Shown here piece after piece: positions 3,001 to 42,695 of a DNA stretch of 64,000 nucleotides. Each line of letters begins with the position of its first letter. The first letter of the stretch is position 1. The DNA lies in assembly GCA_046537845.1 (NCBI GenBank), contig JBKHKA010000002.1, positions 67,152 to 131,151 of the forward strand, in the 5' to 3' direction. A program made the translations under genes and the position numbers. This DNA comes from Candidatus Aenigmatarchaeota archaeon (GTDB lineage Archaea; Thermoplasmatota; Thermoplasmata; Halarchaeoplasmatales; Halarchaeoplasmataceae). The notes beneath the pieces were generated by a model that made no database searches, was not told the origin of the DNA, and saw nothing but the letters and a program-made list of their open reading frames with translations.

Positions 3001-3323
3001 TCGATGATCTACCCAAGGGTATCTTCATAGACGACGTGATGGTGGTCGAAAGCGATATGGATATCTCGGCGGTGGATACAGAAAACCCCTTGGAAGATGA
3101 CCTTGGGCCCATGAAGGAAAACAGAGTTCAAACCGGATTCGCGACGCCCTCGCTGTTGAGTCAGAACCATCTACAGTTCGTCTTTAAGGAGATCAACAAA
3201 GAGCCTTTGGGTCAACTAGAGATATTCAGATCCAACATCTTCACCTCGACATATGGTCTTGATCATGAGGTTGTAGATATGAAAACTAATCCTGTTTTGG
3301 ATGAAAGGAGGGGTAAACTATGA
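1..3323 (+). CDS. Giant acidic secreted/surface protein with vWA domain, 5'-truncated by the window edge (tandem paralog of the next gene)
   Basis: The frame is open from nt 3. Nt 3-68 translate to VVDHDVDFALDEPHTGRSYEIEV, which aligns with VVDYDIEVSTDHPETGRSYEVTV inside the downstream gene, so the GTG at 69 is not the true start. vWA domain with intact MIDAS (DLYLVIDESGSMG, GGGTSL, LTDG; nt ~690-1060). CARDB-like segment at the N-terminal end. Very D/E-rich. Confidence 0.85.
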   Translation, partial: VVDHDVDFALDEPHTGRSYEIEVDIQNIGYRGTSTLVRIKEGEDYIGSETLFVEGSERVSEDGSTYFDIEPGTATLEITWRPSNAGERDIRVRVDPLRRVREIAEDGEEDEENKLMEFNNQAAVEQPVYFFYDDMEDDTGYWRHDSTVVNIDGTGPLDFVDREDVDTKVAGDWDADHSGLTYNDGSAEFGEGYYETDEEDVEEFTDSAHYTSPRSYWMPETPGAGEERKPMDLYLVIDESGSMGNTDDDSTTRMEYAIDAAKAAVGMLREGDRVTVYGFDSSVTKIVDRAWTNTSTDRANINSTIEDLEAGGGTSLFDATAAAVRDMDGIDRDSVMGLVTLTDGVSNSDDNDNYLYAPGGGDGNEPDEPAPAEYYQKGQESGLLGIPYNVFTVTIGNAPDARMHSIPATSTADIAYGVYESDAAKLQGLFEMFISELMKESQGGLKSVQDRLERDKYNNNIIQNTVEDTEFMVFSDGFRTKDWTAPGYGAWSSSGFEYNDRELEWDGDRTCIKADSNGESVSQTIDPSVMLNEMSGSYSIKGAYVSFLLETEEVGWWDPDQSSLNMRIDGSDVFTGMEDDWGDYHKEDISSYVSGEDSFDLEFIHDGDPGADLWLDDVSVTYELDYDPEEKEESDYEQAVGTDANYRYTTTPEIDVRDTASEKLRFRTRYSMTEGTNGGMMYLWGNNGGDWEWKKNSRRYIRPEQSYTGNLDFDEVENHSSTGGPDLTGDGGTGLIDREDDLPYWCFNGKSGSGAFDWQFVSVDLSDYENFMGDFDEVRVVFVMAQMGGISPESGWNEDMGWYIDNVNLRVTRTAEGEIPQDGNGYWMRVNKTELEDEKGFNIPVGEEDKYYDHTLGDENGHYWLYTRNDNDETALPQGVDSSLYTSMISLDNAEQPELIAYMKFNLDNTSAVPPDGLRIEVSENDGRSWDSLTYGIRSGWGASGDTEHGKYSGETDDGEYGWVNASSLARVSTDLSGYRGENIILRFRVFTNLTDSYEVDDLPKGIFIDDVMVVESDMDISAVDTENPLEDDLGPMKENRVQTGFATPSLLSQNHLQFVFKEINKEPLGQLEIFRSNIFTSTYGLDHEVVDMKTNPVLDERRGKL

Positions 3324-6300
3324 AAAACCAAGCTAGAAAGATGAAAAAAGGTATCAAAAGTATCAGGAAGCGAACTCATAGTAGAGACAGACCCGATGAC
3401 GAAGAAGGTATATCAGAGGTAGTGGGAAGCATCTTGACGTTGACGATAACGGTGGTTATCTTCACCAGCGTTTTCGCCTCTGTAACACAATTGGAGGGAC
3501 CTGAAGAACAACCTCATGTGGATTTCTCCACAGAATATGAGTACACCGCCCAAGCGGACTATATCAACATCACACACGAAGGCGGAAAGAATTTAGATCT
3601 AGATGACCACTCATTCATAGTTGTAGTGGATGACACCGGCGGTGAAGATTCTAGAAGCTACAGCATCGATGACGATGAGATGACCACTACGGGTGATGAA
3701 TCTTCCTTCATAATAGGGGATGAGATATGCATCAAGATCGAAGATGAATTAGATATCTCTCCTGACTCTAGGATGGAACTCATGGTCCGGCAGGACAGCA
3801 ATTCCCAGATCATCTATAGAACGATCCTGTTGGAAGAGGACCGGGAGCTTTTGGACATAAGGAACGCCCGTATAGAGTATAAATTCATATGGAGAGAACA
3901 TGCAGAACCCGGCGAGGAGATCTCCATAAAGGCTGAAGTCCTCGCTCCGATCTATCTAAGACAGGACGATTTCCGTCCTGAAGAACTCAACGTGACCGCC
4001 TCTACTCTCCAAGATGGCATCCTCTACCACGAGGAGAAGGAGGAAGAGGTGAAGGAAGTCGAGCTTGAACACTATCACAAAGGAGAATTCAGGAGTGAAA
4101 ACATAAGTGTTGTTGATGATGTGGATCATACCAGTTACAGCGTGAAGATAAACGCTGTCCACGAAGCTGAAGGTCTTGAAGCCACTCCAGAATACATATC
4201 CCTTCACGTGGGCAAGCCGGCGGTGAGGCGGTACCAGGCGGACTTGGTCATAGGAAATATAGATTACGAGCCCGGTTCACCGAGCCATAATGAAGAATTC
4301 AGGGTAAAGATCCAAATATTCAACAGGGGCGCTCAAAATTACACCGCGGACTGGAAGTTGAAAGATAACGATGTGCTAAAACATGAAGATACCACCACTT
4401 TTATCAAGGGACCTGATCCAACAGTAGTGACAGCAGAGTATGACATAATGGGTGTAGATTATCACAAGATCGAAGTCAGTGTGAACACCTCTTTCGAGGA
4501 CGAAGACGGCAGTACGGTGGAGGATGCAAATCCAGAGAACAACAGGAAGACCTTTGACGTATATGTGGACCCAAATATGCTCATCGTGAAGGACATGACC
4601 GCCGACGACGATCATGAAGATGGTCTGATGGAGAATGCTCTTACCGATCTGGATTTCGATTATGGAGTTCACAGCGTCGAATCGGAAGATGAATATCCTG
4701 AGAGCGATCACTTGAATCAATACAGCATATGTATATGGGTCACCGGTAGTGGGACAGACGATGAAGACATAGCACCTCTGCCGCCGTCGGCTCAAGATGA
4801 GTTGATTAAATTCATCGAAGAAGATAACGGGAGATTATGGCTGTTGGGCTCGAACCTTAACGAAGTCGATTTTCAAAACGATTTTAGAGCACTGCTGGGT
4901 ATAAGCAGCGGGATCGGAGATACGGATGAAACCACTCTTCATGGCGAATTGGAAAACCCTGAAGATGATGAAGACGGGACTTACGGGGATCACACTTATC
5001 CCGTATATTCAGATACCACAGCTCACGAACTGAGCTTGAAGAGCGGTGTGGAAGACGAAAATACACTACAACACGATCAAGGAAATAATGAGATCGTTGG
5101 GGTAGGGTACGACAGCGATACCGATGAAAATAAAAGGACGGCCTTGAACTCTTTCCTCTTCGAATCTGTTTCACATCCCGCAGCTAGAGGAAACATGGCT
5201 CAGGAAGTCATCAAATGGCTGTCCAACTTGACCGTGAGAACGGGAACAGATGTTTCGGTCTCTTCTCAAATGATAGAGCCCACTGCACCGATGTTCATGG
5301 ATAACGTTACTATAAACGCAACTTTGAGAAACAACGGTGCTGAAGACGTGAACGTGACTGTCAGAGCGCTCAGGAACCAGGGGGAAGAAGTGTTGGAGCC
5401 AGTGTTGGACGAACCTTGGCTTCACATCCCAGGTCGAGGAGGAACCGCAAATGTGGAGTTCTTTTGGGAAGCTGACGAATTAGGTACTCACGAATTCTTG
5501 GTCGTGGCGGATTATTACAACGAGCTCGACGAAAACACCCGAGAGAACAACGACATCACCTACAAGAACTTAGAGATAACTGAGGACGTGGTAGAAGTCA
5601 ACGTGCAGTACTCGACTCTGGTGGTCGATGCCGATGTGTCGGAGGATACAAATGTTGACTATGAAAACGTGACCAAACATGTTACAGATTCGCTAGACCG
5701 GTTGGGCCAAGAGAGAGGAGAAACCTATGATTACTATTATGTTGAAGATCCTGCTAACGATAATGGACCCACTGCCAGCTACATGCGCAATTACAATGCG
5801 ATAATCTGGGTGACCGGGGAGAGAGGCAGCGACGTGGGACAGGATATAGTCTTCACAGAAGAGGATGCGGAACGATTACTCGATTACTTTGAAGTGGAGG
5901 AGCGCGGGAATGTGATATTTATCGGTGAAAATATCTTGAGTTACCTGTATGATAATGATGAGATAGATCCTAATGACGCTCAGGCCTTGATCGAGTATAT
6001 GGGCGTTGATCCTTCCTCCATAGAAGATGATGATGCTTCTCCCACTCACATCATAGGTGAAAACGACAGCCAGCTCGGGCGGAACCTCAGGTACAGGCTC
6101 AGTGGCGCCTCAGATATCGACACTTTCGACGATACTTCCTCGAACGGAGACGTGCTTTTCACAGACGGTGTTGACAATCTAGCCTCCGTATATGATGACG
6201 GTTCTATACGGAACGTGTATATGGGCATAAACCCCAACAGATTTCAGGGGCCTCTCTTGACCGGAGAAGATTTCGAGACATGGCCTGGAGGAGACGTTAA

Positions 6301-9300
6301 CCTTTCTTATGAGAACGTGAGAGATGAGTTCTTTTACACCAACTTATGGTACCTCGGGATGAACGATGAAAGAGCTGACCTGAGAGTGGTCGATTACGAT
6401 ATAGAGGTATCTACCGACCATCCAGAAACGGGTCGATCATACGAAGTGACGGTGGAGATCGAGAACTTTGGTTATAAAGGCGCCTCTACAATGGTCAGAG
6501 TGAAGGAAGGAGATGACCATATCGGGACTAGAACGGTCTTCGTCGAAGGGTCTAGAAGAGACTCACCGGACAGCAGTTCTTACTTCAACGTTGAGCCCGG
6601 CAGCGTTACGGTGGAATTCACATGGGACCCGATGTTCGCTGGAAATAGACCGCTCCGGGTCAAGATCGATCCGCTGCGGTTAGTAGATGAGATAGAACCT
6701 TATGGGGAAGAGGGAACGGAAGACAAGATAATGGAGTTCGACAATCAAGCTGTAGTGACGAATCCGGTGCACTACTTCTACGATGATATGGAGAGGGGTC
6801 CTGGAAAATGGGAGCACGACGCCACCCTGATGAATATCGACGGTCTATCACCCCTAAATTTCATAGGAAGGAGAGACTTAAATACGAACGTTGAAGGTGA
6901 ATGGGACTGGGATATGAGCGGAACTACCAGTGTACGGGAAGAAGGAGAATTGGGCAAGGGCGCAGGCGTTTATGAAACTGACGACCCGGCTGTACACAAC
7001 TTCACAAATAACGCTTCTCACACACCACCTCGTTCTTTCTGGTTGCCTGAAAGTGAAGGAGATCCGGAGATGAGGGGCAGACAGCCGTTGGACATAGTAA
7101 TGGTATTTGATCGTGGGATAGAATCTGAACAAGATTATAACGATGCGGTAGATGCAGCTGAGGCTTTGATCGATTTCTTGAAAATTGACGATGGCGATGA
7201 TAGAGTTGCGATATATTCTAGTCAAGGAGCGGCGATTAATGATGATTTAACTTTAGAGCAGAGTGAAGGTATGAGTGAAGATGATATCAAAGATAAAATT
7301 CCTGATTGGAAAAAACACAATCCTCAAAAAGCGATCCTAGACTCTACATCTATAGCCATTGAAGAATTAGATGATGTAGATGATGAGAGAGCAAATAAAT
7401 CGACTAGTGGTATTATTACCTTTACAGATGGGCTCAGTACTCAGGACCAAGGTGAGAAATACACCCCAGCTAAAGGACAGGGTGGTGAACCAAATCAGCG
7501 GGGACCTGCCCAATGGTATCATAGAGATGCCGATGATGAAAAAGGTTTACTTGGGATTCCATACAATATAATGACATTGACTATAAGCGATAAGGTAGAA
7601 GGAAGACATCATTGGATCTCAGCAGCTTCCGATGCTAATGTCAGTTATGGTATATTGGAAAGGGAGACTGAAAAATTAAAAGCTCTTTACAAAATGTTTG
7701 TTATGGATTTGATCCAATCTGAGCGGGGTGAATTGAGGTCAATCCCGAAAGAAGAATTAGATACGAGAAACAGCAAAATGACATCAGGTGATTCTCTTCT
7801 TAATAATCCACCTGTGATAGAAAATACAGAGTTCTTTGTTTATACAGATGCTTTTACCACTGGTCACCTTGACGATGAGGTCGATTATTATGATTGGAAA
7901 GGTGGAAAGAGAATTCCAGCCTACAGTGATTACGATAAATTGGAGTTTGATATTGTTACGGGTAAAGGGAAAGTTGGAACAGGCACTGATAATTGGGTTT
8001 GGGCTGAATCCGACACCGCTGGAGAAAAAATTGCAAATACAGTATACCCAAGAGACACTCTAGATGAATTAGAAGGCGATTACGGAGTGAAAGGAGCATA
8101 CGCTAAGATGTATGTTGAAACTGATGGGTCCAGTTTGGAATTACGAATAAATGATAATCTTGTAGAAACAGATATTACAGGAAATGGAGAATACATTAAC
8201 ATCCCTCTTGATTTTATATCTAATCCGGAACCATTTGATTTCGTAATTGAACATAAAGATGGAGGTGACGTTATCCTGGATGATCTCTCCTTCACATACG
8301 ATATAGATTATATCCCAGAAGGCGAATACGGGCAAGAAATCGGTACAGATAATAAGTACCGATTCTTAACCACCCCCTCAGTGGATATTGGAAGCATAGA
8401 GGACCTAAGGGACGCAGAACTTGAGTTCCAGAACAAATATTGGTTGGAGGAAGGTACCACTGGGGGCTTCATCTATCTCTGGGGCAAGAATGAGAATGAA
8501 AATTGGGACTGGGCACAGGAGAACAGACTTTACGTTGAACCTCAACAATCCTATACTGGCAATCTGAACTTGGAAAGGGTCGAGGAAGAAAGTGACGAAG
8601 GGGGTTTGGGTATCACCGATCTAGATGGTGAGCCAGGAGATGGTCTGAGAGATGCAAAAGGTGAGCTCCCGCAGTGGGTCTTCAACGGTAAAAGCCAGGA
8701 TGGAACCTTTGATTGGAGACACATATCTGTGGATGTGGGTCAGTATGACGAGTTTATAGAGGATCATGATGAGATCAGAGCAGTTTTCACTCTAGCACAA
8801 TTTGGAGGTGTTACAAAAGAAGACGGTTGGGAATCCAAAAAAGGTTGGTACCTTGATAACATAAGATTTAAAGTATCTTCAGGATGGAGCAGCGACGGAC
8901 CGGGTTATTGGAATCTGACCAGCGCTTCTCAGCTCAACGAGATGGGTATATCTATAAATGAGGATGATGAAAATTACCACGATCACACTCATGGCGACGA
9001 AGACGGCCATTACTGGATGTTCACGGCAGAAGAAGGCGGTGAAGACAGACTTCCCCAGGGTATAGATTCAAGCCTTTATACCCGACCGATCTATCTAGAT
9101 ACTGCAGATCAACCGGTCCTTACTGCACACATGAAGTTCAACATCGATGATGGTTCTGGATTACCTCCAGATGGACTGAGGGTCGAAGTCTCCGACGACG
9201 ATGGAAAGACTTGGGACTCCATCACTTACGGTGTAAGATCAGGATGGGGTGCTAGCGGCGATTCGGCAAACGGAGAGTACTCCGGTGAAAGCGAAGATGG

Positions 9301-10264
9301 TGGATACGGCTGGGTAGAGAGCGACTCTTTAGTCAGACTGCAATCCGATCTTTCTGGTTGGAGAGGAGAGAGGATAATACTTCGATTCAGGGTCTTCACC
9401 AACACCACTGAGAAGTATTCTGACGATAATCTTCCCAAAGCCATCTTCATAGACGATGTCTGGATAACAGAAGGCGGTCTAGCAATGGATCAAGAACCTC
9501 ACTCGCTGGAATTCGACGGGGACGACGATTATGTTGACCTAGAGACTGACTTTTATGACCCTCAAACATTTTCGTGGGCGTTCTGGGTAAATCCAGATGA
9601 GCTTGATGAAGATGGAGACAATAATTATAGAAGGATTATCACATCATCGGATTCTGCTGCAAACATCATCCTTATTGAAGAAAATGGAGATGTTTCATTT
9701 AGGGTTCCTGGAGTTGAGACAGACAATTTCAAAGCAGGAAATGTGCCCTTAAACGATTGGGCTCATGTAGTATGTGTTTATGACCAATCTGATAGAATAA
9801 TCTATGTAAATGGAAATGAGGACGATAGAGAGAATATCGGCAGTGGGACAGTTGATTTTCCTCCAATTCAGTTAGTTCACCCGGGTTCTCAGACCTTTGA
9901 TGGAAACATAGACGACGTCCGCCTATACGACCGGGCTCTCACTCCGAGCGAGATAAGCGGTCTCTTCGGCGGACAGGATATCATGGACGGCTTAGTGGGC
10001 TGGTGGCCTATGGATGAAGGAGAGGGGGATCTGGCCTACGATTACTCCGGCAACAGGAACCACGGCACCATCTACGGGGCCTCGTGGAGTACGGATACGC
10101 CTTTTGCATATCTACCCACTGGAGGATCCGAGGCTGAGATATCATGGTCAGAAGGATCAGATCTAGCTCCGTTCGACATAGAACCCGTAGATATCGATGA
10201 GAAACCGATGGCGATAGACTCACAGATCGTTCCTCCAACGAAGGAAACAGATCGAGATAATTAA
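3320..10264 (+). CDS. Giant (2314 aa) surface protein with archaeal type IV pilin-like (class III) signal peptide, CARDB-like repeats, degenerate vWA-like module and C-terminal LamG/ConA-like lectin domain
   Basis: ATGA start/stop overlap with the upstream gene, with GGAGGGG a few nt upstream. The N-terminus (basic stretch, then EEG-ISEVVGSILTLTITVVIFTSVF) matches the archaeal pilin/DUF1628-type pattern. Nt ~6386-9480 are paralogous to gene 1. LamG signature HSLEFDGDDDYVDL...FDGNIDDVRLYDRALTPSEI at nt ~9490-9990. Confidence 0.9.
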   Translation: MKNQARKMKKGIKSIRKRTHSRDRPDDEEGISEVVGSILTLTITVVIFTSVFASVTQLEGPEEQPHVDFSTEYEYTAQADYINITHEGGKNLDLDDHSFIVVVDDTGGEDSRSYSIDDDEMTTTGDESSFIIGDEICIKIEDELDISPDSRMELMVRQDSNSQIIYRTILLEEDRELLDIRNARIEYKFIWREHAEPGEEISIKAEVLAPIYLRQDDFRPEELNVTASTLQDGILYHEEKEEEVKEVELEHYHKGEFRSENISVVDDVDHTSYSVKINAVHEAEGLEATPEYISLHVGKPAVRRYQADLVIGNIDYEPGSPSHNEEFRVKIQIFNRGAQNYTADWKLKDNDVLKHEDTTTFIKGPDPTVVTAEYDIMGVDYHKIEVSVNTSFEDEDGSTVEDANPENNRKTFDVYVDPNMLIVKDMTADDDHEDGLMENALTDLDFDYGVHSVESEDEYPESDHLNQYSICIWVTGSGTDDEDIAPLPPSAQDELIKFIEEDNGRLWLLGSNLNEVDFQNDFRALLGISSGIGDTDETTLHGELENPEDDEDGTYGDHTYPVYSDTTAHELSLKSGVEDENTLQHDQGNNEIVGVGYDSDTDENKRTALNSFLFESVSHPAARGNMAQEVIKWLSNLTVRTGTDVSVSSQMIEPTAPMFMDNVTINATLRNNGAEDVNVTVRALRNQGEEVLEPVLDEPWLHIPGRGGTANVEFFWEADELGTHEFLVVADYYNELDENTRENNDITYKNLEITEDVVEVNVQYSTLVVDADVSEDTNVDYENVTKHVTDSLDRLGQERGETYDYYYVEDPANDNGPTASYMRNYNAIIWVTGERGSDVGQDIVFTEEDAERLLDYFEVEERGNVIFIGENILSYLYDNDEIDPNDAQALIEYMGVDPSSIEDDDASPTHIIGENDSQLGRNLRYRLSGASDIDTFDDTSSNGDVLFTDGVDNLASVYDDGSIRNVYMGINPNRFQGPLLTGEDFETWPGGDVNLSYENVRDEFFYTNLWYLGMNDERADLRVVDYDIEVSTDHPETGRSYEVTVEIENFGYKGASTMVRVKEGDDHIGTRTVFVEGSRRDSPDSSSYFNVEPGSVTVEFTWDPMFAGNRPLRVKIDPLRLVDEIEPYGEEGTEDKIMEFDNQAVVTNPVHYFYDDMERGPGKWEHDATLMNIDGLSPLNFIGRRDLNTNVEGEWDWDMSGTTSVREEGELGKGAGVYETDDPAVHNFTNNASHTPPRSFWLPESEGDPEMRGRQPLDIVMVFDRGIESEQDYNDAVDAAEALIDFLKIDDGDDRVAIYSSQGAAINDDLTLEQSEGMSEDDIKDKIPDWKKHNPQKAILDSTSIAIEELDDVDDERANKSTSGIITFTDGLSTQDQGEKYTPAKGQGGEPNQRGPAQWYHRDADDEKGLLGIPYNIMTLTISDKVEGRHHWISAASDANVSYGILERETEKLKALYKMFVMDLIQSERGELRSIPKEELDTRNSKMTSGDSLLNNPPVIENTEFFVYTDAFTTGHLDDEVDYYDWKGGKRIPAYSDYDKLEFDIVTGKGKVGTGTDNWVWAESDTAGEKIANTVYPRDTLDELEGDYGVKGAYAKMYVETDGSSLELRINDNLVETDITGNGEYINIPLDFISNPEPFDFVIEHKDGGDVILDDLSFTYDIDYIPEGEYGQEIGTDNKYRFLTTPSVDIGSIEDLRDAELEFQNKYWLEEGTTGGFIYLWGKNENENWDWAQENRLYVEPQQSYTGNLNLERVEEESDEGGLGITDLDGEPGDGLRDAKGELPQWVFNGKSQDGTFDWRHISVDVGQYDEFIEDHDEIRAVFTLAQFGGVTKEDGWESKKGWYLDNIRFKVSSGWSSDGPGYWNLTSASQLNEMGISINEDDENYHDHTHGDEDGHYWMFTAEEGGEDRLPQGIDSSLYTRPIYLDTADQPVLTAHMKFNIDDGSGLPPDGLRVEVSDDDGKTWDSITYGVRSGWGASGDSANGEYSGESEDGGYGWVESDSLVRLQSDLSGWRGERIILRFRVFTNTTEKYSDDNLPKAIFIDDVWITEGGLAMDQEPHSLEFDGDDDYVDLETDFYDPQTFSWAFWVNPDELDEDGDNNYRRIITSSDSAANIILIEENGDVSFRVPGVETDNFKAGNVPLNDWAHVVCVYDQSDRIIYVNGNEDDRENIGSGTVDFPPIQLVHPGSQTFDGNIDDVRLYDRALTPSEISGLFGGQDIMDGLVGWWPMDEGEGDLAYDYSGNRNHGTIYGASWSTDTPFAYLPTGGSEAEISWSEGSDLAPFDIEPVDIDEKPMAIDSQIVPPTKETDRDN

Positions 10265-26162: not shown

Positions 26163-26813
26163 TCAGGTATTGGTTATCTTCTCCAGTTCCTTCTGCACCT
26201 TATCTCTTAGTCCATCATCCGAGATGTTTATGGCGAGAACATACGCCTTTGCATCTCCATCTCCACCGTTGCCTTTTTTAAAGCTAATTGAAAATTCTTC
26301 AGTATCGAAGTAGCAAGGATTGAATCTCAGCATAAGGCCTTGGTATATCAGTTTCTCCAATTTTCTGATGGATCTTATGGATTCAGCCCCGACTAATCTT
26401 TCGATGTTCTTCGATGCGCGCTTGATCTTCTCGGTAGAGGATCCTTCGTCAGAATCATCTATTTTTACCGTTTCAGCTACGCCTTTCTTTATCTTCTCAC
26501 CAGCCTTTTCTAGTTCTTCTTTGGGCCCGTCATACCCATCTTCTACACCCTTCTTCTCTATGCTAGCTTCTTCTACAGTTTTCTTAGTGATGTCTTTTTC
26601 ATCCTCTTTCTCCCTAGGTCGCCATTTATTGTATTTCTCTACAGCTTCTTCATCTGACGAATTCTCCTCCATCACTGTTTCAAGAGATCTCGCAAAAATA
26701 CAAACCTCGTCCCAGTCTCCCCTAAATTCAACACCAGCGTGGGTATATTCTACCTTCGCTGGGTCGGTACTGCATACCTTTCTATCGGTATTACATACCG
26801 TTGATTTGCTCAT
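26163..26813 (-). CDS. Hypothetical protein, paralog A of a two-member local family
   Basis: Shares GVEFRGDWDEVCIFARS, WRPRE and LMLRFNPCYFDT...INISDD blocks with the gene at 27194-27763. Confidence 0.7.
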   Translation of the reverse strand: MSKSTVCNTDRKVCSTDPAKVEYTHAGVEFRGDWDEVCIFARSLETVMEENSSDEEAVEKYNKWRPREKEDEKDITKKTVEEASIEKKGVEDGYDGPKEELEKAGEKIKKGVAETVKIDDSDEGSSTEKIKRASKNIERLVGAESIRSIRKLEKLIYQGLMLRFNPCYFDTEEFSISFKKGNGGDGDAKAYVLAINISDDGLRDKVQKELEKITNT

Positions 26814-26902
26814 CGGTGTTTATATTTTAAAGAGGATGTATAAATAACTTTCGTTCACACTTCAAATATCTCTTTACACCGATCGAGAGTATAGTGGAAG
26901 TC

Positions 26903-27040
26903 GGAACTTTTAAAACTAAAGTTCCAACATCCACAACTCACTGAGGAATTCACAGGAATTCCTCATGTCGATGGAATTTGCTCGCAAATTCCAGTAGACG
27001 TCAATGACTCTATAAAAGTTCAAAAAGTCGAGTCATTGAC
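26903..27040. repeat. Array of four consecutive inverted repeats/hairpins, three with GGAAY...RTTCC stems
   Basis: H1 26903-26925: ggaacttt/aaagttcc. H2 26942-26965: tgaggaattc/gaattcctca. H3 26973-26992: ggaatttg/caaattcc. H4 27000-27040: gtcaatgactc/gagtcattgac. All stems checked by hand as exact complements. Confidence 0.8.
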
Positions 27041-27193
27041 TATAAATATGAGGGGGATTATAAATAACAGTATCACGATATAAAATGTGCAAATTATGGA
27101 CCATTAGGAAAGAAAAATAGATAATAGGAAAATGGTGATCAATCAGATCGCAAAGAAGGAGGGATTCAATTTCAAAGAACTCGTTGAGAGTAA

Positions 27194-27763
27194 TCAATTA
27201 TTCGCTTTTTTATGAAGCTCTTCCTTCACCCTTTCTCTCAATCTGTCATCAGATATATTGACTGAAAATCTATAATCTTTCTTTTTACCCTCACCACTTT
27301 CTTCTAGATTAACTGAAAAGAAGTCCGTATCGAAGTAACAGGGATTAAATCGCAGCATTATCTGGCTGTATATCATCTTCTCTAATATTCTTATAGTTTT
27401 TATAGAACCAGCCTCGAAGACCCGTTCTAAACTTTTGGAGGCTTTCTTGAAATTTTCAGCAGAATTTTTTGACACACTATTCTTTATCCTTCTTCCAGCT
27501 CTATCGAGCTCTTCTTTCGCACCGTTGTACTCTTTTTCTACCTTCTTTTTCTTTATACATGCCTTTTTAGCGGTTTTTTCTGATAATTCTTCTATGTCCT
27601 CCTCCTCTCTTGGCCTCCAATCCTCATAATCCTGAAGAGATTCTTCGTCTGGTCTACCTTTTTCCATCGCATCCTCTACAGAACGGGCGAAATGGCAGAC
27701 CTCTTTCCAGCCCCCTTTAAACTGCACACCGGAGTTCGTGACTTCTATTTTTTGGTTCTTCAT
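27194..27763 (-). CDS. Hypothetical protein, paralog B of the local family
   Basis: GVQFKGGWKEVCHFARS, WRPREEED and IMLRFNPCYFDT...VNISDD blocks are collinear with paralog A. Confidence 0.7.
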   Translation of the reverse strand: MKNQKIEVTNSGVQFKGGWKEVCHFARSVEDAMEKGRPDEESLQDYEDWRPREEEDIEELSEKTAKKACIKKKKVEKEYNGAKEELDRAGRRIKNSVSKNSAENFKKASKSLERVFEAGSIKTIRILEKMIYSQIMLRFNPCYFDTDFFSVNLEESGEGKKKDYRFSVNISDDRLRERVKEELHKKANN

Positions 27764-30834: not shown

Positions 30835-30908
30835 AGCCACCGGTGGGATTTGAACCCACGACCTGCTGATTACAAGTCAGCCGCTCTGCCGAACTAAGCT
30901 ACGGTGGC
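30835..30908 (-). tRNA. tRNA-Thr (anticodon UGU)
   Basis: Minus strand: GCCACCG TA GCTT AGTTCGGCA GAGC G GCTGA CTTGTAA TCAGC AGGTC GTGGG TTCAAAT CCCAC CGGTGGC T. It folds by hand as a cloverleaf. No intron and no encoded CCA. Confidence 0.9.
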
Positions 30909-30965
30909 GAGTGGAACGAGGCACCTAGCGTGTGAGGCAGCTGTTTGGAACTTTGTTCCGATGGG

Positions 30966-30999
30966 CTGCCGAACTAAGCTACGGTGGCGAATGGAACGA
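30966..30999 (-). repeat. Duplicated copy of the tRNA-Thr leader plus first 23 nt of the tRNA
   Basis: 30966-30999 matches 30886-30919 at 33 of 34 positions (ctgccgaactaagctacggtggcgaRtggaacga). The copy lies 80 bp upstream of the tRNA in its own orientation. Confidence 0.9.
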
Positions 31000-31236
31000 A
31001 ATGAGGAATCTGCTCTCTTTTTAGATGTTGTACATCCACCTATCAACATCTGTAAAATAAACCTTCCGGCGAGCTTTCACCTCCGCCTGAAATATCCCTG
31101 AGTCAAACCAACCACCGAAAGTGATATATGTAAGACGCTAACTAATATGTACTACAACTATAACTTATTCAAAGAAAAAGTATCGAAGATTATAATCCGT
31201 GGAAAATGTTTATATAGTCCCCTTTACGTATATATT

Positions 31237-31313: not shown

Positions 31314-31703
31314 ATGGAAAAGAAAATATCTCTGCGGGTGTCCGACGAGGACCTGGAAGTCATCGACTCCTTCATAGCAAGGCATGACTTCAACAACAGA
31401 TCGGAATTTTTAAGAGAAGCGGCTCTAGATTATATCGAGAGATACAGCGAACCCAAAGGACAGGAAGAAGTACCGGAAAGGATCAAGCTCCCCAAGAGAC
31501 TCAAGAACAACATTTGGTATCTCATCAAGATGGGGCACTACAACGACTGGCAGGACGCTATCCACGAACTCGTTAGAGAAGGGCTTCTAAAAGAAGATAT
31601 GGAAAAACTGGAAAGGCAGTATGATGCAGTCGACTCTCTGAGCAGCAAAGTGGAGACTTTCAAAAGTTTTGCTGAAGAAGAAAATGAATACATGAAAAAG
31701 TGA
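31314..31703 (+). CDS. Ribbon-helix-helix (CopG/Arc-type) DNA-binding protein with helical C-terminal extension
   Basis: N-terminal KKISLRVSDEDLEVIDSFIARHDFNNRSEFLREAALDYI is a typical RHH strand-helix-helix. Sits immediately upstream of an FtsZ-family gene. Confidence 0.75.
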   Translation: MEKKISLRVSDEDLEVIDSFIARHDFNNRSEFLREAALDYIERYSEPKGQEEVPERIKLPKRLKNNIWYLIKMGHYNDWQDAIHELVREGLLKEDMEKLERQYDAVDSLSSKVETFKSFAEEENEYMKK

Positions 31704-31753
31704 TACCCACCTTATATAGGATGAAAAGACCCCCTAACCGGAGGAAAGTATAT

Positions 31754-32629
31754 ATGGATGCAAAAAGCCCCGAATACCCTTCGCCCGAAAGCGAATTCCT
31801 CGATAGTAGAGCTGAGGACATAGTGGATGCACTCCTCTACGAACCGAACCTACACGTGATAGGTGTAGGCGGCTGCGGCTGTAACACCATAGAACACATC
31901 ACCGACAAAGAGATGGACAACGTGAAAACGATAGCCGTGAATACAGATGAAAAAGTACTTGAAGATATGAATGCGGATAGGCAGATGCTGATAGGAAAAG
32001 AATTGACCGACGGAAAAGGAGCCAACGGAGATCCAAAGATAGGAAAAAGAGCGGCACAAAAGAGTGAAGAGCAGTTGTTGAAAACGATAGACGAATCGGA
32101 CATGGTGGTTATAGTTGCTGGATTAGGAGGGGGCACCGGTAGTGGTGCTTCCAAAGTGATCGCGGACCTAGCAAGAAGGAACGGCAAGATGGTCTTCACC
32201 TATGCGGTGATGCCCTTCTCTGTAGAAGGAGAAAAGAGGCAAAACAGAGCTGAAAAAATGCTAGACCAGTTGTCAAAATTGAGCCATGCAACTACCGTCT
32301 TCGACAATGACAAAACATTGAGCAATGGTAGCCGATCGATGAAAGATGCCTTCGCCATGGCGGACAAAATGCTCTATAAAGTGGTCCAAAACTTGCGGAT
32401 GGATTATATCACGGAATTCTTTGGGGAGATAGGGCTAGATGCGATGGACTTGTCTGAAACCATTTCTGAAGTTGAATATGAAGAAGAAGGAAAGAAAGTA
32501 AATGAGCCTCCCGTCCTCGAGGCATTGAAATTTGTAGAGGCGAATGCAGACCAGGAAGAGGATGAACAAGTCGAGGAAAACATGGAAGAACCCAAGTTAG
32601 ATGATTTCCTTGAAAATTATATGCACTGA
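31754..32629 (+). CDS. Short FtsZ/tubulin-superfamily GTPase lacking the C-terminal subdomain, with acidic tail
   Basis: T1 GVGGCGCN. Tubulin signature GLGGGTGSG. VFDNDK. H7-like MKDAFAMADKMLYKVV. T7-like GEIGLDAMDL. The protein then ends in an acidic tail finishing KLDDFLENYMH. GGAGGA lies 9 nt before ATG 31754. An alternative GTG at 31700 overlaps the RHH stop. Confidence 0.8.
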   Translation: MDAKSPEYPSPESEFLDSRAEDIVDALLYEPNLHVIGVGGCGCNTIEHITDKEMDNVKTIAVNTDEKVLEDMNADRQMLIGKELTDGKGANGDPKIGKRAAQKSEEQLLKTIDESDMVVIVAGLGGGTGSGASKVIADLARRNGKMVFTYAVMPFSVEGEKRQNRAEKMLDQLSKLSHATTVFDNDKTLSNGSRSMKDAFAMADKMLYKVVQNLRMDYITEFFGEIGLDAMDLSETISEVEYEEEGKKVNEPPVLEALKFVEANADQEEDEQVEENMEEPKLDDFLENYMH

Positions 32630-40888: not shown

Positions 40889-41663
40889 ATTATTTAATGT
40901 GTTTACGTTGTATGATTACTTTTATTGAATTATAGCATATCTGCTTATTATTAGATGTATTTAAAAATGACTAAATTTTTTAAGGTATTAAATTATTCTT
41001 ACTTATTCAAATTAGCTGCAAAACCATGATAAGCGAGGTTAATTTATTGATAAACAAATAACCAAATTAGCGTTATTAATTTAGCTTAAACAAAAATCAT
41101 TGTTTTGCAAAGATTTGAAAAACCGAGGGACCGTTAGGAAAGAGGAATATTTCTCGGTCGATATAGATATTATAAATTCCGACGTCTTTTCTTTTCATAT
41201 TTAAAATTAACGTCGTATTAGTTATGTTTTCCGACATCCTCGGTTTTGCATATTTAAAGGTAACGTTTTTTCCCCTTGCTCTTTTGAAAGAGGTCGATCT
41301 TTTACTATTTTTCTTCTAAAGAGGGTATCCCCCGCGTCCTAAAATAGGTATTTTATCGAGTCTTCCGTTTTTTCGGTGGTTTTGTAGATAATATGAAAAA
41401 TAATTGGTTAATTAAGTTCTATAATTAGTAAAACATTAACGACCTTTTCAAAATTTATTAATGAAATACCGAAAATATGTTTTTTCAATAAATAAGAAAA
41501 ACCGTGTATTTAGTATATTTGTTAATGATAAAGAATTTACGGATTATGCTAAATTAATAAATAAAAATCGATAAGCCGCTCATTTTTCTGCTACAATGAC
41601 TAACCTATCCGCTTTTTCGTCATAGGGTTCTCCGCTGTAATTACCATTGAAGAAATCGATGGA
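40889..41663. other. 775-bp very AT-rich non-coding block with internal direct and inverted repeats
   Basis: No ORF of 60 aa or more in any frame. Some 60-nt lines hold only ~10 G+C (e.g. 40921-40980). A ~38-nt direct repeat occurs at 41177-41215 and 41229-41266 (ttccgacNtc...catatttaaaNNtaacgt). Inverted pair aaaaaccgagg (41118-28) / cctcggtttt (41238-47). Confidence 0.7.
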
Positions 41664-41736
41664 TAGCCCGGGGCGGATTCGAACCGCCGTAACAGGCTCC
41701 AAAGGCCTGTATGATTGACCACTACACCACCGGGCT
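41664..41736 (-). tRNA. tRNA-Gln (anticodon UUG)
   Basis: Minus strand: AGCCCGG TG GTGT AGTGGTCAA TCAT A CAGGC CTTTGGA GCCTG TTAC GGCGG TTCGAAT CCGCC CCGGGCT A. Hand-folded cloverleaf. No intron. Confidence 0.9.
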
Positions 41737-41757
41737 TCTACGAAGTGCGGTGGAGGA

Positions 41758-41843
41758 AGGAATCTCCGATTCCTACGCACCACCGGGCTAGCTTGCTAGG
41801 CCGAGGAAAGTAGGAATTTCTAATTCCTACGCACCACCGGGCT
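41758..41843 (-). repeat. Two tandem units, each a GGAAT...ATTCC hairpin plus a copy of the first 12 nt of tRNA-Gln
   Basis: caccaccgggct occurs at 41725-36 (true tRNA 5' end), 41778-89 and 41832-43. The two upstream units share attcctacgcaccaccgggct (21 nt) and carry hairpins aggaatc-tcc-gattcct and gtaggaatt-tct-aattcctac. Confidence 0.9.
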
Positions 41844-41954
41844 GTTATGAAGCAAGAGTGTGCAGAGATAGTTGGAATCTCTGACAGTAAGTATTTTACC
41901 TATAATCACAGCTCACCAAAATATATAACTGTTTTCACAGAACAAGGCCCTATT

Positions 41955-42695
41955 TTACACTTGCTTTATGGCACTTATCATCTTTTCCAACTTATTCTTC
42001 ACATCTGTAGACTCTTCTAGCACCGTGCCGGTAACGATCACGTCAGCTCCAGCCTTAGTTAGCTCTCTTGCCTGCTCAGGCTCTCTTATCCCACCTCCCA
42101 CGATCAACGGGATGTCTATATTCTCCTTACACAACTCGATCATCTCTGTAGGAACGGGCTCAGGAGCACCAGAACCAGCTTCTAGGTAAAATAGTTCCAT
42201 CCCTAGATATTGTGCAGCTAGGCCAAAATTAACTGCCTTTCGGGGTTCACCTCGGGGGATCGGATCCGCGTCACCAACTTCCCCTACGGTCATGCCGGGT
42301 TCCACAACCACGTAACCCATGGGCAGAGGTTGTATGCCAGTTTTCTTTATATATGGAGCACCTAGGACCTGCTCTCCTATCACCTTATTGAGATCTTTGG
42401 AATTCAGCATGCTCATGAAATATATCGCATCAACGTGTGGTGAGATCGCACCGGCCTCTGTGGGAAAATGGATAACAGGGGATTCTATCTTGTTCTTCAT
42501 AGCTTTGACGGTTTTATCGAGTTTTTCTTGAGTTATCCCAGTTGAACCTCCCACCATGACAGCATCACTTCCCATCTCTTCTAAAGCCAGTGCTAATCTT
42601 CCAGCTTCCTCAGCACTCTGCTCATCCGGATCTATTAGCCCCATGTGAAGCGTTTCTTTGTCTATCTTCCTCAGCAAGTAATCCATGACTTTCAT
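41955..42695 (-). CDS. pcrB: Geranylgeranylglyceryl phosphate (GGGP) synthase
   Basis: GLIDPD, MVGGSTG, YLEAGSGA and IVGGGIR motifs of the PcrB/GGGPS TIM-barrel family. Confidence 0.9.
   Translation of the reverse strand: MKVMDYLLRKIDKETLHMGLIDPDEQSAEEAGRLALALEEMGSDAVMVGGSTGITQEKLDKTVKAMKNKIESPVIHFPTEAGAISPHVDAIYFMSMLNSKDLNKVIGEQVLGAPYIKKTGIQPLPMGYVVVEPGMTVGEVGDADPIPRGEPRKAVNFGLAAQYLGMELFYLEAGSGAPEPVPTEMIELCKENIDIPLIVGGGIREPEQARELTKAGADVIVTGTVLEESTDVKNKLEKMISAIKQV

What the first reader, a model, noticed from the sequence alone, without database searches (positions are those of the whole stretch)
41725..41843. First 12 nt of tRNA-Gln present three times at ~54-bp spacing, each upstream copy paired with a GGAAT hairpin
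CACCACCGGGCT (minus strand AGCCCGGTGGTG, tRNA positions 1-12) occurs at the true 5' end and twice more upstream, at 41778-89 and 41832-43. The two upstream units share 21 identical nt and each carries a perfect hairpin. On the transcript strand, the leader between unit B and the tRNA contains CCACCG (41748-53). It can pair with CGGTGG of either the decoy copy or the real acceptor stem, giving mutually exclusive structures around the 5' processing site. No TATA-like box lies at -25 of the mature end; candidates (ttatatatttt, ttataggtaaaat) lie ~130-165 nt upstream. This is the same design as the tRNA-Thr locus, and it is absent at tRNA-Asp. That argues for a recurring mechanism rather than chance. 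The tRNA-splicing endonuclease gene lies 1.4 kb away.
Basis: seen in the sequence. Interest (0 to 1): 0.62.

Follow-up and report, generated by a model that had tools for sequence, protein, structure and literature searches.

The report
Self-copying hairpin modules in tRNA leaders
In a group of salt-loving archaea, several tRNA genes are preceded by one to four conserved hairpin modules that each begin with an exact copy of the tRNA's own first 12-23 bases and end with its complement, an undescribed leader design predicted to compete with the folding and 5' trimming of the tRNA.

Summary
AGCCCGGTGGTG occurs three times on the minus strand, at 41725-36, 41778-89 and 41832-43; 0 of 100 shuffles gave three matches.

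It marks two tandem modules of 53-54 nt in the tRNA-Gln leader. Each module holds:
- a copy of tRNA nt 1-12;
- a hairpin with a GGAA/UUCC stem;
- an "anti" segment complementary to tRNA nt 5-10;
- a pyrimidine-rich tail.

A conserved BRE/TATA lies upstream of the whole array.

Related uncultured halophilic Thermoplasmata (Natronoplasma/Saliniplasma group) carry 0-4 such modules at tRNA-Gln and tRNA-Thr, and a diverged one at tRNA-Leu. Mirror-image modules follow tRNA-Asp and tRNA-Ala.

Copy and anti change together with each genome's tRNA. Module bodies stay 80-100% identical where synonymous sites are saturated, so they are under selection. Nothing similar lies away from tRNAs.

No BHB motif, Rfam family, integrase or viral match explains them.

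Folding predicts near-isoenergetic competing pairings that depress acceptor-stem formation.

Best reading: a transcribed leader array, expanded by tandem duplication, that gates pre-tRNA folding and maturation. Transcription and function are inferred only; no RNA data exist.

The parts
41918..41938 (-). Conserved archaeal promoter (BRE plus TATA, GTGAAAACAGTTATATATTTT) of the tRNA-Gln transcription unit. Inferred start about 41895-41900.
   Evidence: The same motif lies upstream of tRNA-Gln in nearly all relatives. TATA to tRNA is 35-43 nt where there are no units. TATA to first copy is 40-57 nt in most arrays. No transcript data.
41844..41883 (-). 'Unit 0': copy-less leader hairpin CAGAGAT-tccaact-ATCTCTG (41863-41883) plus tail CACACTCTTGCTTCATAAC (41844-41862).
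   Evidence: The tail matches tails of full units in relatives (CACTCTTGCTTCGCAAC in L008, L011). Its last 9 nt resemble the 9 nt before the tRNA.
41790..41843 (-). Unit A (54 nt): copy of tRNA nt 1-12 (41832-41843), hairpin GTAGGAAT-TAGAA-ATTCCTAC (41810-41830), anti CCTCGG (41801-41806), tail CCTAGCAAGCT (41790-41800).
   Evidence: Covariance-model hit at 57.9 bits. Orthologous units are L004a and L010a.
41737..41789 (-). Unit B (53 nt): copy of tRNA nt 1-12 (41778-41789), hairpin GGAATC-GGA-GATTCC (within 41758-41776), anti CCACCG (41748-41753), tail CACTTCGTAGA (41737-41747). The tail forms CUUC-GUA-GAAG with A+1 and G+2 of the tRNA.
   Evidence: Covariance-model hit at 66.4 bits. The unit body is 93% identical to one in L006.
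41664..41736 (-). tRNA-Gln (anticodon UUG), the intact gene whose nt 1-12 are repeated.
   Evidence: ARAGORN and Rfam RF00005 at 63.6 bits.
31050..31063 (-). TATA-like element (GGTTTATTTTACAG) of the tRNA-Thr unit. It is conserved as GGCCGGAARATTTAT in relatives.
   Evidence: Inferred, no transcript data.
30909..30999 (-). tRNA-Thr leader unit: 11 nt leader plus copy of tRNA nt 1-23 (30966-30999); nested hairpin GGCAG..GGAAC-AAA-GTTCC..CTGCC (30936-30970); anti GCTAGGTG (30922-30929); tail CCTCGTTCCACTC (30909-30921).
   Evidence: Homologous units in L083, L084, L081, L095 and L028.
30835..30908 (-). tRNA-Thr (anticodon UGU).

Best explanation
The three 12-mers are the visible part of a tandem array of roughly 54-nt 'self-mimic' modules that make up an unusually long 5' leader (about 160 nt) of the tRNA-Gln precursor.

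Each module has four pieces: (i) a copy of tRNA nt 1-12; (ii) a hairpin whose stem base is the conserved GGAA/UUCC; (iii) an 'anti' segment complementary to tRNA nt 5-10, followed by CU, which pairs with A1 and G2; and (iv) a pyrimidine-rich tail that resembles an ordinary short tRNA leader.

Shown:
- The anatomy.
- Its restriction to tRNA flanks.
- Its presence across a clade of halophilic Thermoplasmata at several tRNA genes.
- Co-variation of copy and anti with the tRNA of each genome.
- Purifying selection on module bodies.
- Growth by tandem duplication.

Inferred:
- The array is transcribed from the conserved BRE/TATA that lies upstream of all modules.
- In the RNA, each anti can pair with its own upstream copy (module hairpin, leaving the tRNA free), or with the next copy or the true tRNA 5' end (junction hairpin, burying the RNase P site).
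- A free copy can also take the tRNA's 3' acceptor strand.
- The leader therefore competes for both strands of the acceptor stem. It acts as a cis-acting gate or delay on pre-tRNA folding and 5' maturation, probably read by a factor that recognises the GGAA/UUCC stem.
- RNase P then removes the leader at the true +1.
- Arrays expand by tandem duplication of [hairpin-anti-tail-tRNA nt 1-12] and shrink by deletion between the direct repeats.
- The arms stay matched to the tRNA through conversion plus compensatory selection.
For: - The repeats are real and non-random.
- A conserved module alignment exists: 16 units from 10 genomes, with invariant GGAA/UUCC and variable loops. 90.9% of cells are paired, against 27.6-49.2% when partners are slid. 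Pairs 14-34 (GC, UG, AU, UA) and 21-27 (UA, GC) covary.
- The covariance model finds modules only upstream of tRNA-Gln and in tRNA-Thr leaders across 521 kb.
- GGAA-stem hairpins are 16-fold enriched within 350 nt of tRNAs in the clade, and none lies near a tRNA in the outgroup loci.
- The 3' part of a unit pairs best with its own genome's tRNA variant in 28 of 34 units. Examples: CCACCG for CGGUGG, CCACGG for CCGUGG, CUACGG for CCGUAG.
- The Thr alpha arm shows the path C:G, then U.G, then U:A across L097, L081 and L084.
- Thr copies also share D-loop differences with their tRNA (L083).
- Synonymous third positions in PcrB are about 41% identical between genomes. Module bodies (copy excluded) reach 93% (window vs L006) and 100% (L027 vs L028).
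- TATA to first copy is 40-57 nt, matching TATA to tRNA of 35-43 nt in unit-less relatives. The first element after the promoter lacks a copy, as tandem duplication predicts.
- The last two units of L096 differ by 1 nt, indicating a recent duplication.
- The two pairing registers are isoenergetic within about 3 kcal/mol in 32 units.
- With native leaders the predicted probability of the canonical acceptor stem falls to a mean of 0.25, against 0.97 with an 8-nt leader. With anti plus tail alone it is 0.00.
- Established knowledge: pairing that involves the 5' leader at the acceptor stem impairs RNase P (PMC9433436, abstract only).
Against: - No transcript data of any kind exist. The start site, the processing sites and any effect on maturation are inferred.
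- The modules are dispensable. L002, L007, L012, L017 and L019 have none at tRNA-Gln, and L093 and L094 have none at tRNA-Thr.
- In silico, shuffling the copies neither rescues nor worsens acceptor-stem formation on average (0.31 vs 0.25). The copy is therefore not simply an 'antidote' to the anti.
- Nearest-neighbour folding ignores tRNA tertiary structure, co-transcriptional order and molar salt.
- Mirror-image 3' units follow oligo-T stretches (tRNA-Asp in L027 and L028). This fits a strand-symmetric DNA-level process better than a leader function.
- G.U versus A.C counts in stems (13 vs 9) do not prove RNA-level pairing on the sense strand.
- Oligo-T is not depleted in the leaders.
Confidence: 0.45

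Rival explanations
1. Functionless by-product. tRNA gene ends in this lineage are prone to tandem duplication and to palindrome-templated (template-switch) mutation. This creates and homogenises copy/anti arms. The arrays persist because copy and anti neutralise each other.
For: - Unit numbers vary from 0 to 4, and several lineages have lost the units entirely.
- A recent tandem duplication is seen in L096.
- Distal units are degenerate or copy-less.
- Mirror symmetry at the 5' and 3' flanks.
- No clear strand asymmetry of G.U versus A.C.
- Shuffling copies has no consistent in-silico effect.
Against: - Module bodies, excluding the tRNA copy, are 80-100% identical between genomes whose synonymous sites are saturated.
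- The GGAA/UUCC stem is invariant in sequence while neighbouring pairs covary and loops drift. Templated correction preserves pairing, not a particular sequence.
- The same stem and tail motifs recur at different tRNA genes.
Confidence: 0.15
2. The modules are cut out of the precursor and act in trans as stable small RNAs that mimic the tRNA acceptor end. RNase P would cut at every copy, because each module hairpin starts at the copy's +1. The released RNAs would serve as decoys or titrators for a tRNA-binding enzyme or nuclease.
For: - In more than half of the units the predicted module helix reaches nt 1-2 of the copy, with a single-stranded 5' flank, as in an RNase P substrate.
- Unit A's 3' arm CCUCGGCCUA resembles the tRNA 3' end CCCCGGGCUA, including the discriminator.
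- Selection acts on whole module bodies.
Against: - There is no T-loop-like element. The helix of about 20 bp is longer than the 12-bp acceptor/T minihelix.
- Several units have a 2x2 internal loop at nt 3-4.
- No RNA evidence exists.
Confidence: 0.12
3. DNA-level element. The hairpins/palindromes are sites for a DNA-binding or structure-specific protein (recombinase, nickase or regulator) acting at tRNA gene ends. The arms arise from its action.
For: - The modules are palindromic and mirror-symmetric at 5' and 3' flanks, including beyond oligo-T tracts.
- The GGAA..TTCC core is sequence-conserved.
- tRNA-Asp 3' ends are true integration sites in the clade. A tyrosine recombinase gene at L010 8007-8936 ends 64 nt from tRNA-Asp.
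Against: - The spacing between GGAA and TTCC varies from 5 to 14 nt among unit types. This argues against a fixed dimer site.
- 5' units always lie downstream of the promoter and in tRNA sense.
- A G.U intermediate is seen in the Thr arm.
- No transposase or integrase lies beside the 5' arrays.
Confidence: 0.1
4. Scars of integrative elements: att-site duplications left after integration and decay of viruses or plasmids that target tRNA genes.
For: - Partial tRNA copies in direct orientation next to intact tRNAs are the classic att signature (PMC9897764, PMC3293823).
- An integrase sits next to tRNA-Asp in L004 and L010.
- The window shows deletions on both sides of tRNA-Gln: a methyltransferase remnant and an absent DUF2070 gene.
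Against: - Copies are 53-80 nt apart, with no foreign genes between them.
- The 'spacers' are homologous, structured, orthologous across species and under selection.
- The copies are of the tRNA 5' end and lie downstream of the promoter.
- No related sequence was found in 2.9 million viral contigs.
Confidence: 0.05
5. Intron-like insertion after nt 12, or a leader removed by the splicing endonuclease EndA at a bulge-helix-bulge motif.
For: - The promoter sits at a tRNA-like distance from the first copy, as if the gene body had been displaced by insertions.
- The EndA gene lies nearby.
Against: - No strict hBHBh' motif has a conserved position.
- In 78 copy pairs, no motif would give seamless excision. 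Only weak helices arise, from the CCGG palindrome or with two G.U pairs.
- This EndA is the two-domain (352 aa) type, which by established knowledge needs canonical BHB motifs.
Confidence: 0.03

Closest known systems
tRNA gene fragments (attL/attR) left by integrative elements in archaea and bacteria (Reiter 1989; Williams 2002; PMC9897764; PMC3293823)
   Same: A partial copy of a tRNA gene lies in direct orientation beside the intact gene. Presence and absence vary among relatives. tRNA-Asp in this clade really is an integration site.
   Different: The repeats are 53-80 nt apart instead of kilobases, and no integrase or cargo lies between them. The copy is the 5' end and sits downstream of the promoter. 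The intervening DNA is a conserved hairpin carrying the complement of the copy. Units are tandem, orthologous across species and under selection.
Overlapping alternative hairpins of transcription attenuators and T-box leaders (trp leader 1:2 / 2:3 / 3:4)
   Same: A chain of segments in which each can pair with either neighbour, giving mutually exclusive structures of similar energy.
   Different: The host is archaeal. There is no leader peptide, no specifier, and no terminator hairpin with an oligo-U tract. The controlled object would be the folding and processing of a tRNA, not read-through into a gene. No ligand is known.
tRNA-like processing signals and RNase P model substrates (plant mitochondrial t-elements, tRNA-like element before haloarchaeal 5S rRNA, acceptor/T minihelices, pre-4.5S RNA)
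   Same: A hairpin that starts at a tRNA-like +1 with a single-stranded 5' flank. The acceptor 5' strand is reproduced exactly.
   Different: There is no T-loop or D/T elbow. The helix is longer and interrupted. The modules lie upstream of a real tRNA rather than flanking another gene. Cleavage has not been tested.
Leader/trailer complementarity with BHB motifs in split and permuted archaeal tRNA genes (PMC3978253) and rRNA processing stems
   Same: Flanking sequence complementary to a tRNA end; archaeal context; EndA gene nearby.
   Different: No BHB motif was found. The flank pairs with the adjacent end of the same tRNA, not with the opposite flank. The tRNA gene is intact and colinear.
REP/BIME-type or MITE-like intergenic hairpin repeats
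   Same: Short conserved imperfect palindromes, sometimes in tandem. Some units have a GTAG...CTAC foot.
   Different: They are not dispersed. 33 of 58 GGAA-stem hairpins lie within 350 nt of a tRNA, and the covariance model finds none elsewhere. The arms are specific for the neighbouring tRNA.

Membership tests
Integrative-element att duplication | Direct repeats flank kilobases of foreign DNA that include a recombinase gene | tested here: not met
   Repeats are 53-80 nt apart, and only a 41-68-nt hairpin lies between them. A true case for contrast is the L010 integrase at 8007-8936, next to tRNA-Asp.
Integrative-element att duplication | Matching attP in a virus or plasmid | tested here: not met
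   Two pattern scans of IMG/VR gave only chance hits in high-GC phage coding sequence for the Gln pattern and none for the Thr pattern. Only exact patterns were searched.
EndA (BHB) substrates: introns, split or permuted tRNA flanks | Two 3-nt bulges separated by a 4-bp helix, flanked by helices, at the cleavage sites | tested here: not met
   A general scan found no conserved position. A seamless-excision scan of 78 copy pairs found no proper motif.
CRISPR or neo-CRISPR array | Identical repeats separated by unrelated spacers of foreign origin | tested here: not met
   The 'spacers' are homologous to one another and conserved between species. The repeat is only 12 nt at tRNA-Gln.
Any Rfam 15 family | Covariance-model match | tested here: not met
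   Only tRNA was found at the gathering threshold. Nothing credible appeared at E<=10 in 41600-41960, in L028 5900-10100 or in 26650-27300.
Attenuator-type alternative-hairpin leader | Mutually exclusive hairpins of similar stability | tested here: met
   Register 1 and register 2 lie within about 3 kcal/mol in 32 units. Canonical -50.9 versus alternative -53.6 kcal/mol. This is a prediction only.
Attenuator-type alternative-hairpin leader | One alternative is an intrinsic terminator, or a sensed ligand or ribosome decides the outcome | tested here: not met
   No oligo-U follows the hairpins, and there is no leader ORF. T>=5 runs occur at the chance level. The ligand cannot be tested.
tRNA-like minihelix / RNase P model substrate | Helix beginning at +1 with an unpaired 5' flank | tested here: met
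   The predicted module helix reaches nt 1-2 of the copy in more than half of the units.
tRNA-like minihelix / RNase P model substrate | T-loop-like apical loop, a coaxial helix of about 12 bp, and cleavage by RNase P | tested here: not met
   Apical loops are variable 3-8-nt loops, and the helix is about 20 bp with internal loops. Cleavage itself cannot be tested with these tools.
Dispersed hairpin repeat (REP/MITE) | Many copies scattered through intergenic regions | tested here: not met
   The covariance model found hits only in tRNA leaders within 521 kb. Hairpins are 16-fold enriched near tRNAs. One unexplained cluster lies at window 26890-26990.

The most novel reading that the evidence does not exclude
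Halophilic Thermoplasmata possess a general, dedicated system in which tRNA genes carry cis-encoded mimic/anti-mimic modules. These sit on the 5' side for Gln, Thr and Leu, and on the 3' side for Asp and Ala. They hold the precursor in an inactive fold, a 'pro-tRNA'. A clade-specific factor that recognises the GGAA/UUCC stem would resolve or remove the modules. tRNA supply would then be gated after transcription, for example in response to salt. Alternatively, the released modules could act as acceptor-end decoys.
Probability: 0.2. Interest if true: 0.85.

Novelty: categorically new. Interest (0 to 1): 0.66.

Why it matters
Pre-tRNA leaders in archaea are usually short and treated as disposable. 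Here a whole lineage keeps leaders of 100-300 nt, built from modules that reproduce and complement the tRNA's own end. The modules co-evolve with the tRNA and are under purifying selection.

If they gate folding or RNase P access, this would be a new layer of control over tRNA supply. It would also be a natural strand-displacement device built into an RNA precursor.

If instead they are driven by a mutational mechanism, they show an unusual mode of concerted evolution at tRNA gene ends.

Either way, annotation pipelines should not read these fragments as integration scars or pseudo-tRNAs.

Tried and rejected
1. EndA/BHB processing was rejected. A strict motif scan and a seamless-excision scan both found no proper motif.
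2. No known RNA family fits: Rfam at the gathering threshold and at E<=10 found only tRNA.
3. A viral or plasmid att origin found no support. Two IMG/VR pattern scans gave only chance hits.
4. A dispersed repeat family was rejected. The covariance model R1 over 521 kb hit only tRNA leaders. A first, over-strict hairpin scan found only unit B.
5. Transcript evidence: no RNA runs hold the region. DNA runs confirm the sequence in microbial-mat and hypersaline-lake metagenomes, but show no within-population change in unit number.
6. Strand asymmetry of G.U versus A.C mismatches was inconclusive. Counts were 13 vs 9 on the alignment, and the fold-based count was confounded by refolding of the antisense strand.
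7. Depletion of oligo-T terminator signals in the leaders was not seen.
8. The idea that the copy acts as an antidote to the anti was not supported at equilibrium.
9. Walking off the window ends to reach more tRNAs of the same genome yielded little. One side gave 10 kb without tRNAs. The other side failed because the gene products are not on record.
10. The metagenome scan gave only 5 loci.
11. Literature searches for a prior description found nothing.

Full report
**Observation.** On the minus strand, AGCCCGGTGGTG occurs exactly three times in the window. The sites are 41725-36 (nt 1-12 of tRNA-Gln(UUG), gene 41664-41736), 41778-89 and 41832-43. Chance would give 0.08 matches, and 0 of 100 shuffles reached three. 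The two upstream copies head units of 53 and 54 nt. These units share 21 identical nt, 91% identity over 32 nt, and a GGAAT...ATTCC hairpin. tRNA-Thr(UGU) (30835-30908) has a 34-nt repeat 80 nt upstream, made of 11 nt of leader plus tRNA nt 1-23 and followed by a nested hairpin. tRNA-Asp has none here.

**Anatomy.** Read in the tRNA sense, each unit has five pieces:
- copy of nt 1-12;
- 1-5 nt of linker;
- a hairpin whose basal pairs are GGAA/UUCC;
- 2-4 nt, then an "anti" segment (unit B CCACCG, 41748-53; unit A CCTCGG, 41801-06);
- a tail of 11-19 nt.

The anti complements nt 5-10 of the copy. The next CU can pair with A1 and G2, so a unit is one long interrupted hairpin that begins at the copy's first base.

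The same anti can instead pair with the next copy or with the real tRNA. That pairing encloses a small tail hairpin whose 3' strand ends at A+1 and G+2. Examples are CUUC-GUA-GAAG before the tRNA and CUAG-CAAG-CUAG between units A and B.

A copy-less "unit 0" (hairpin 41863-83, tail 41844-62) precedes unit A. The only conserved promoter element, GTGAAAACAGTTATATATTTT (41918-38), lies upstream of everything.

**Organism and relatives.** The neighbouring genes are GGGP synthase (PcrB), a UbiA prenyltransferase, a two-domain EndA, S8e and SRP19. The closest loci in 185,579 species genomes are uncultured halophilic Thermoplasmata: Ca. Natronoplasma, Saliniplasma, Haladaptatiplasma and unnamed MAGs from soda and hypersaline lakes. 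The best PcrB identity is 81%.

- **tRNA-Gln** in these relatives carries 0-4 units at 53-63-nt spacing. A covariance model built from 16 units finds significant sense-strand matches in 17 loci. All lie directly upstream of tRNA-Gln or at contig ends where the tRNA is cut off. It also hits related hairpins in tRNA-Thr leaders. It finds nothing credible elsewhere in 521 kb.
- **tRNA-Thr** has 1-4 units in the window, L028, L081, L083, L084, L095 and L097, and none in L093 and L094.
- **tRNA-Leu(UAA)** in L026 has a diverged unit.
- **Mirror-image units** lie downstream of tRNA-Asp (L013, L015, L017, L018, L027, L028) and of tRNA-Ala (L093). Moving away from the tRNA, the order is spacer, complement of the T-loop/T-stem 3' strand, hairpins, then a copy of the tRNA 3' end. 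The Ala unit has the same GGAATC/GATTCC stem.

GGAA-stem hairpins occur at 70.5 per 100 kb within 350 nt of tRNAs, against 4.4 per 100 kb elsewhere in the clade. None lies near a tRNA in the Methanomassiliicoccales-type loci, although those loci hold very few tRNA genes.

**Co-evolution and selection.** The copies match the tRNA of their own genome:
- AGCCCGGUGGUG, AGCCCCGUGGUG or AGCCCCGUAGUG for Gln;
- GCCACCG or GCCAUCG for Thr;
- in L083, even the D-loop difference of its tRNA-Thr.

The anti changes in step: CCACCG, CCACGG, CUACGG. The 3' part of a unit pairs best with its own genome's 12-mer in 28 of 34 units. One Thr arm shows the stepwise path C:G (L097), U.G (L081), U:A (L084).

On the 16-unit alignment, 90.9% of cells are paired, against 27.6-49.2% for slid partners. 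Two stem pairs covary. GGAA/UUCC is invariant while the loops drift.

Synonymous third positions of PcrB are only about 41% identical between these genomes. Unit bodies without the copy are 71% identical on average for the best match, 93% for window vs L006, and 100% for L027 vs L028. The best-of-several comparison inflates the mean, but not the top values. The modules are therefore old, orthologous and under purifying selection.

Their number changes by tandem duplication, since the last two units of L096 differ by 1 nt. Units are also lost, since five relatives have none at tRNA-Gln.

**Position relative to the promoter.** Where there are no units, the TATA lies 35-43 nt from the tRNA. Where there are units, it lies 40-57 nt from the FIRST copy in most arrays. 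The distance is longer only where a copy-less unit 0 intervenes. This fits tandem duplication of [hairpin-anti-tail-tRNA nt 1-12] and places all units in the transcribed leader. That placement is inferred, because no RNA run holds this region. DNA runs from microbial-mat and hypersaline-lake metagenomes contain the exact sequence, so it is not an assembly artefact.

**Predicted behaviour of the RNA.**
- In all 32 units the two registers (copy:own anti, or anti:next copy/tRNA) lie within about 3 kcal/mol.
- For unit B plus tRNA, the canonical state (unit hairpin plus cloverleaf) is -50.9 kcal/mol. An alternative is -53.6 kcal/mol; in it the true 5' end sits on the anti and the copy takes the 3' acceptor strand.
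- Anti plus tail alone abolishes the predicted acceptor stem (0.00).
- Across 23 native arrays the mean probability of the canonical acceptor stem is 0.25, against 0.97 with an 8-nt leader.
- Shuffling the copies changes this little on average (0.31).

These numbers ignore tertiary structure, co-transcriptional order and molar salt. They show only that the leader is a serious competitor for both strands of the acceptor stem.

**What it is not.**
- No bulge-helix-bulge motif is conserved or placed for seamless excision, so the nearby EndA gene is coincidental synteny.
- No Rfam family matches.
- No integrase or cargo lies between the repeats, and no viral contig carries the pattern. A genuine integrase does sit beside tRNA-Asp in L010 and offers a contrast.
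- It is not a CRISPR-like array, because the "spacers" are homologous.
- It is not a dispersed REP/MITE family.

**Interpretation.** I take the array to be a transcribed, selected, cis-acting leader built from self-mimic modules. These modules make the precursor bistable around the acceptor stem and the RNase P site. A factor probably reads the GGAA/UUCC stem. RNase P then removes the leader at the true +1 (confidence 0.45). The rivals are:
- a functionless product of duplication and palindrome-templated mutation (0.15), weakened by the selection signal;
- release of the modules as acceptor-end mimic RNAs (0.12);
- a DNA-level site for a structure-specific protein (0.10), favoured by the mirror-image 3' units beyond oligo-T tracts;
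- integration scars (0.05);
- EndA-dependent splicing (0.03).

**Novelty.** Six full-text searches found no description of such leaders, nor any study of tRNA genes in this clade. The nearest known things share single features but fail their defining tests here. These are att fragments (PMC9897764, PMC3293823), attenuator-type alternative hairpins, tRNA-like processing signals, and BHB flanks of split tRNAs (PMC3978253). The finding rests on sequence and comparative evidence only. Transcript mapping and an RNase P assay would decide it.

Noticed in passing
window 26890-26990: An intergenic cluster of three GGAA-type hairpins that is not next to any detected tRNA: GTGGAagtcGGAACTTT-taaaac-TAAAGTTCCaacaTCCAC; GAGGAATTC-acag-GAATTCCTC; GGAATTTG-ctcg-CAAATTCC. 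The first has the same nested design as the tRNA leader units. Rfam and intron-aware ARAGORN find nothing.
   Followed up: partly
window 41580-41654 (minus): Directly 3' of tRNA-Gln lie only the last ~24 codons (GNYSGEPYDEKADRLVIVAEK*) of a SAM-dependent methyltransferase. That gene is intact downstream of tRNA-Gln in relatives (L093 14435-15175). The DUF2070 membrane-protein gene that separates PcrB from tRNA-Gln in most relatives is also absent. The locus has therefore suffered deletions on both sides.
   Followed up: partly
L013, L015, L017, L018, L027, L028 downstream of tRNA-Asp; L093 4086-4200 downstream of tRNA-Ala(CGC): Mirror-image 3' units of 100-124 nt, tandem in L027 and L028. The order is T-rich spacer, complement of the T-loop/T-stem 3' strand (CCGGGATTTG), conserved TTTCACGA and GAGCG motifs with two covarying hairpins, then a copy of the tRNA 3' end that includes an encoded CCA. 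The second hairpin loop, GARC...GYGA, looks like a K-loop. The Ala unit carries GGAATC-tta-GATTCC.
   Followed up: partly
L010 8007-8936 (+); similar in L004 near 1838-3057: A tyrosine recombinase gene (Pfam Phage_integrase, E=1.6e-19) ends 64 nt from the 3' end of tRNA-Asp. This is an ordinary integrated element at this tRNA in some relatives. No distal att copy lies within the DNA held.
   Followed up: partly
L026 1640-1722: tRNA-Leu(UAA) has a diverged 5' copy (GCGAGTGGTAACC against GCGAGGGTAGCC) about 75 nt upstream, followed by a hairpin. Its tail GCTTACTTCT equals the tail before tRNA-Gln in L024.
   Followed up: no
L011 10735-10822: This tRNA-Gln unit follows the PcrB stop codon with no recognisable TATA. 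The tRNA may therefore be co-transcribed with PcrB in that genome.
   Followed up: no
window 31314-32629 (+): A ribbon-helix-helix (CopG/DUF7120) gene and an FtsZ/tubulin-family (CetZ-like) gene diverge from the tRNA-Thr leader. This pairing is conserved in all relatives examined.
   Followed up: no
window 69-10264 (+): Two very large adjacent ORFs (1084 and 2314 aa) open the window. They were not characterised, and their exact products are not on record in the assembly index.
   Followed up: no
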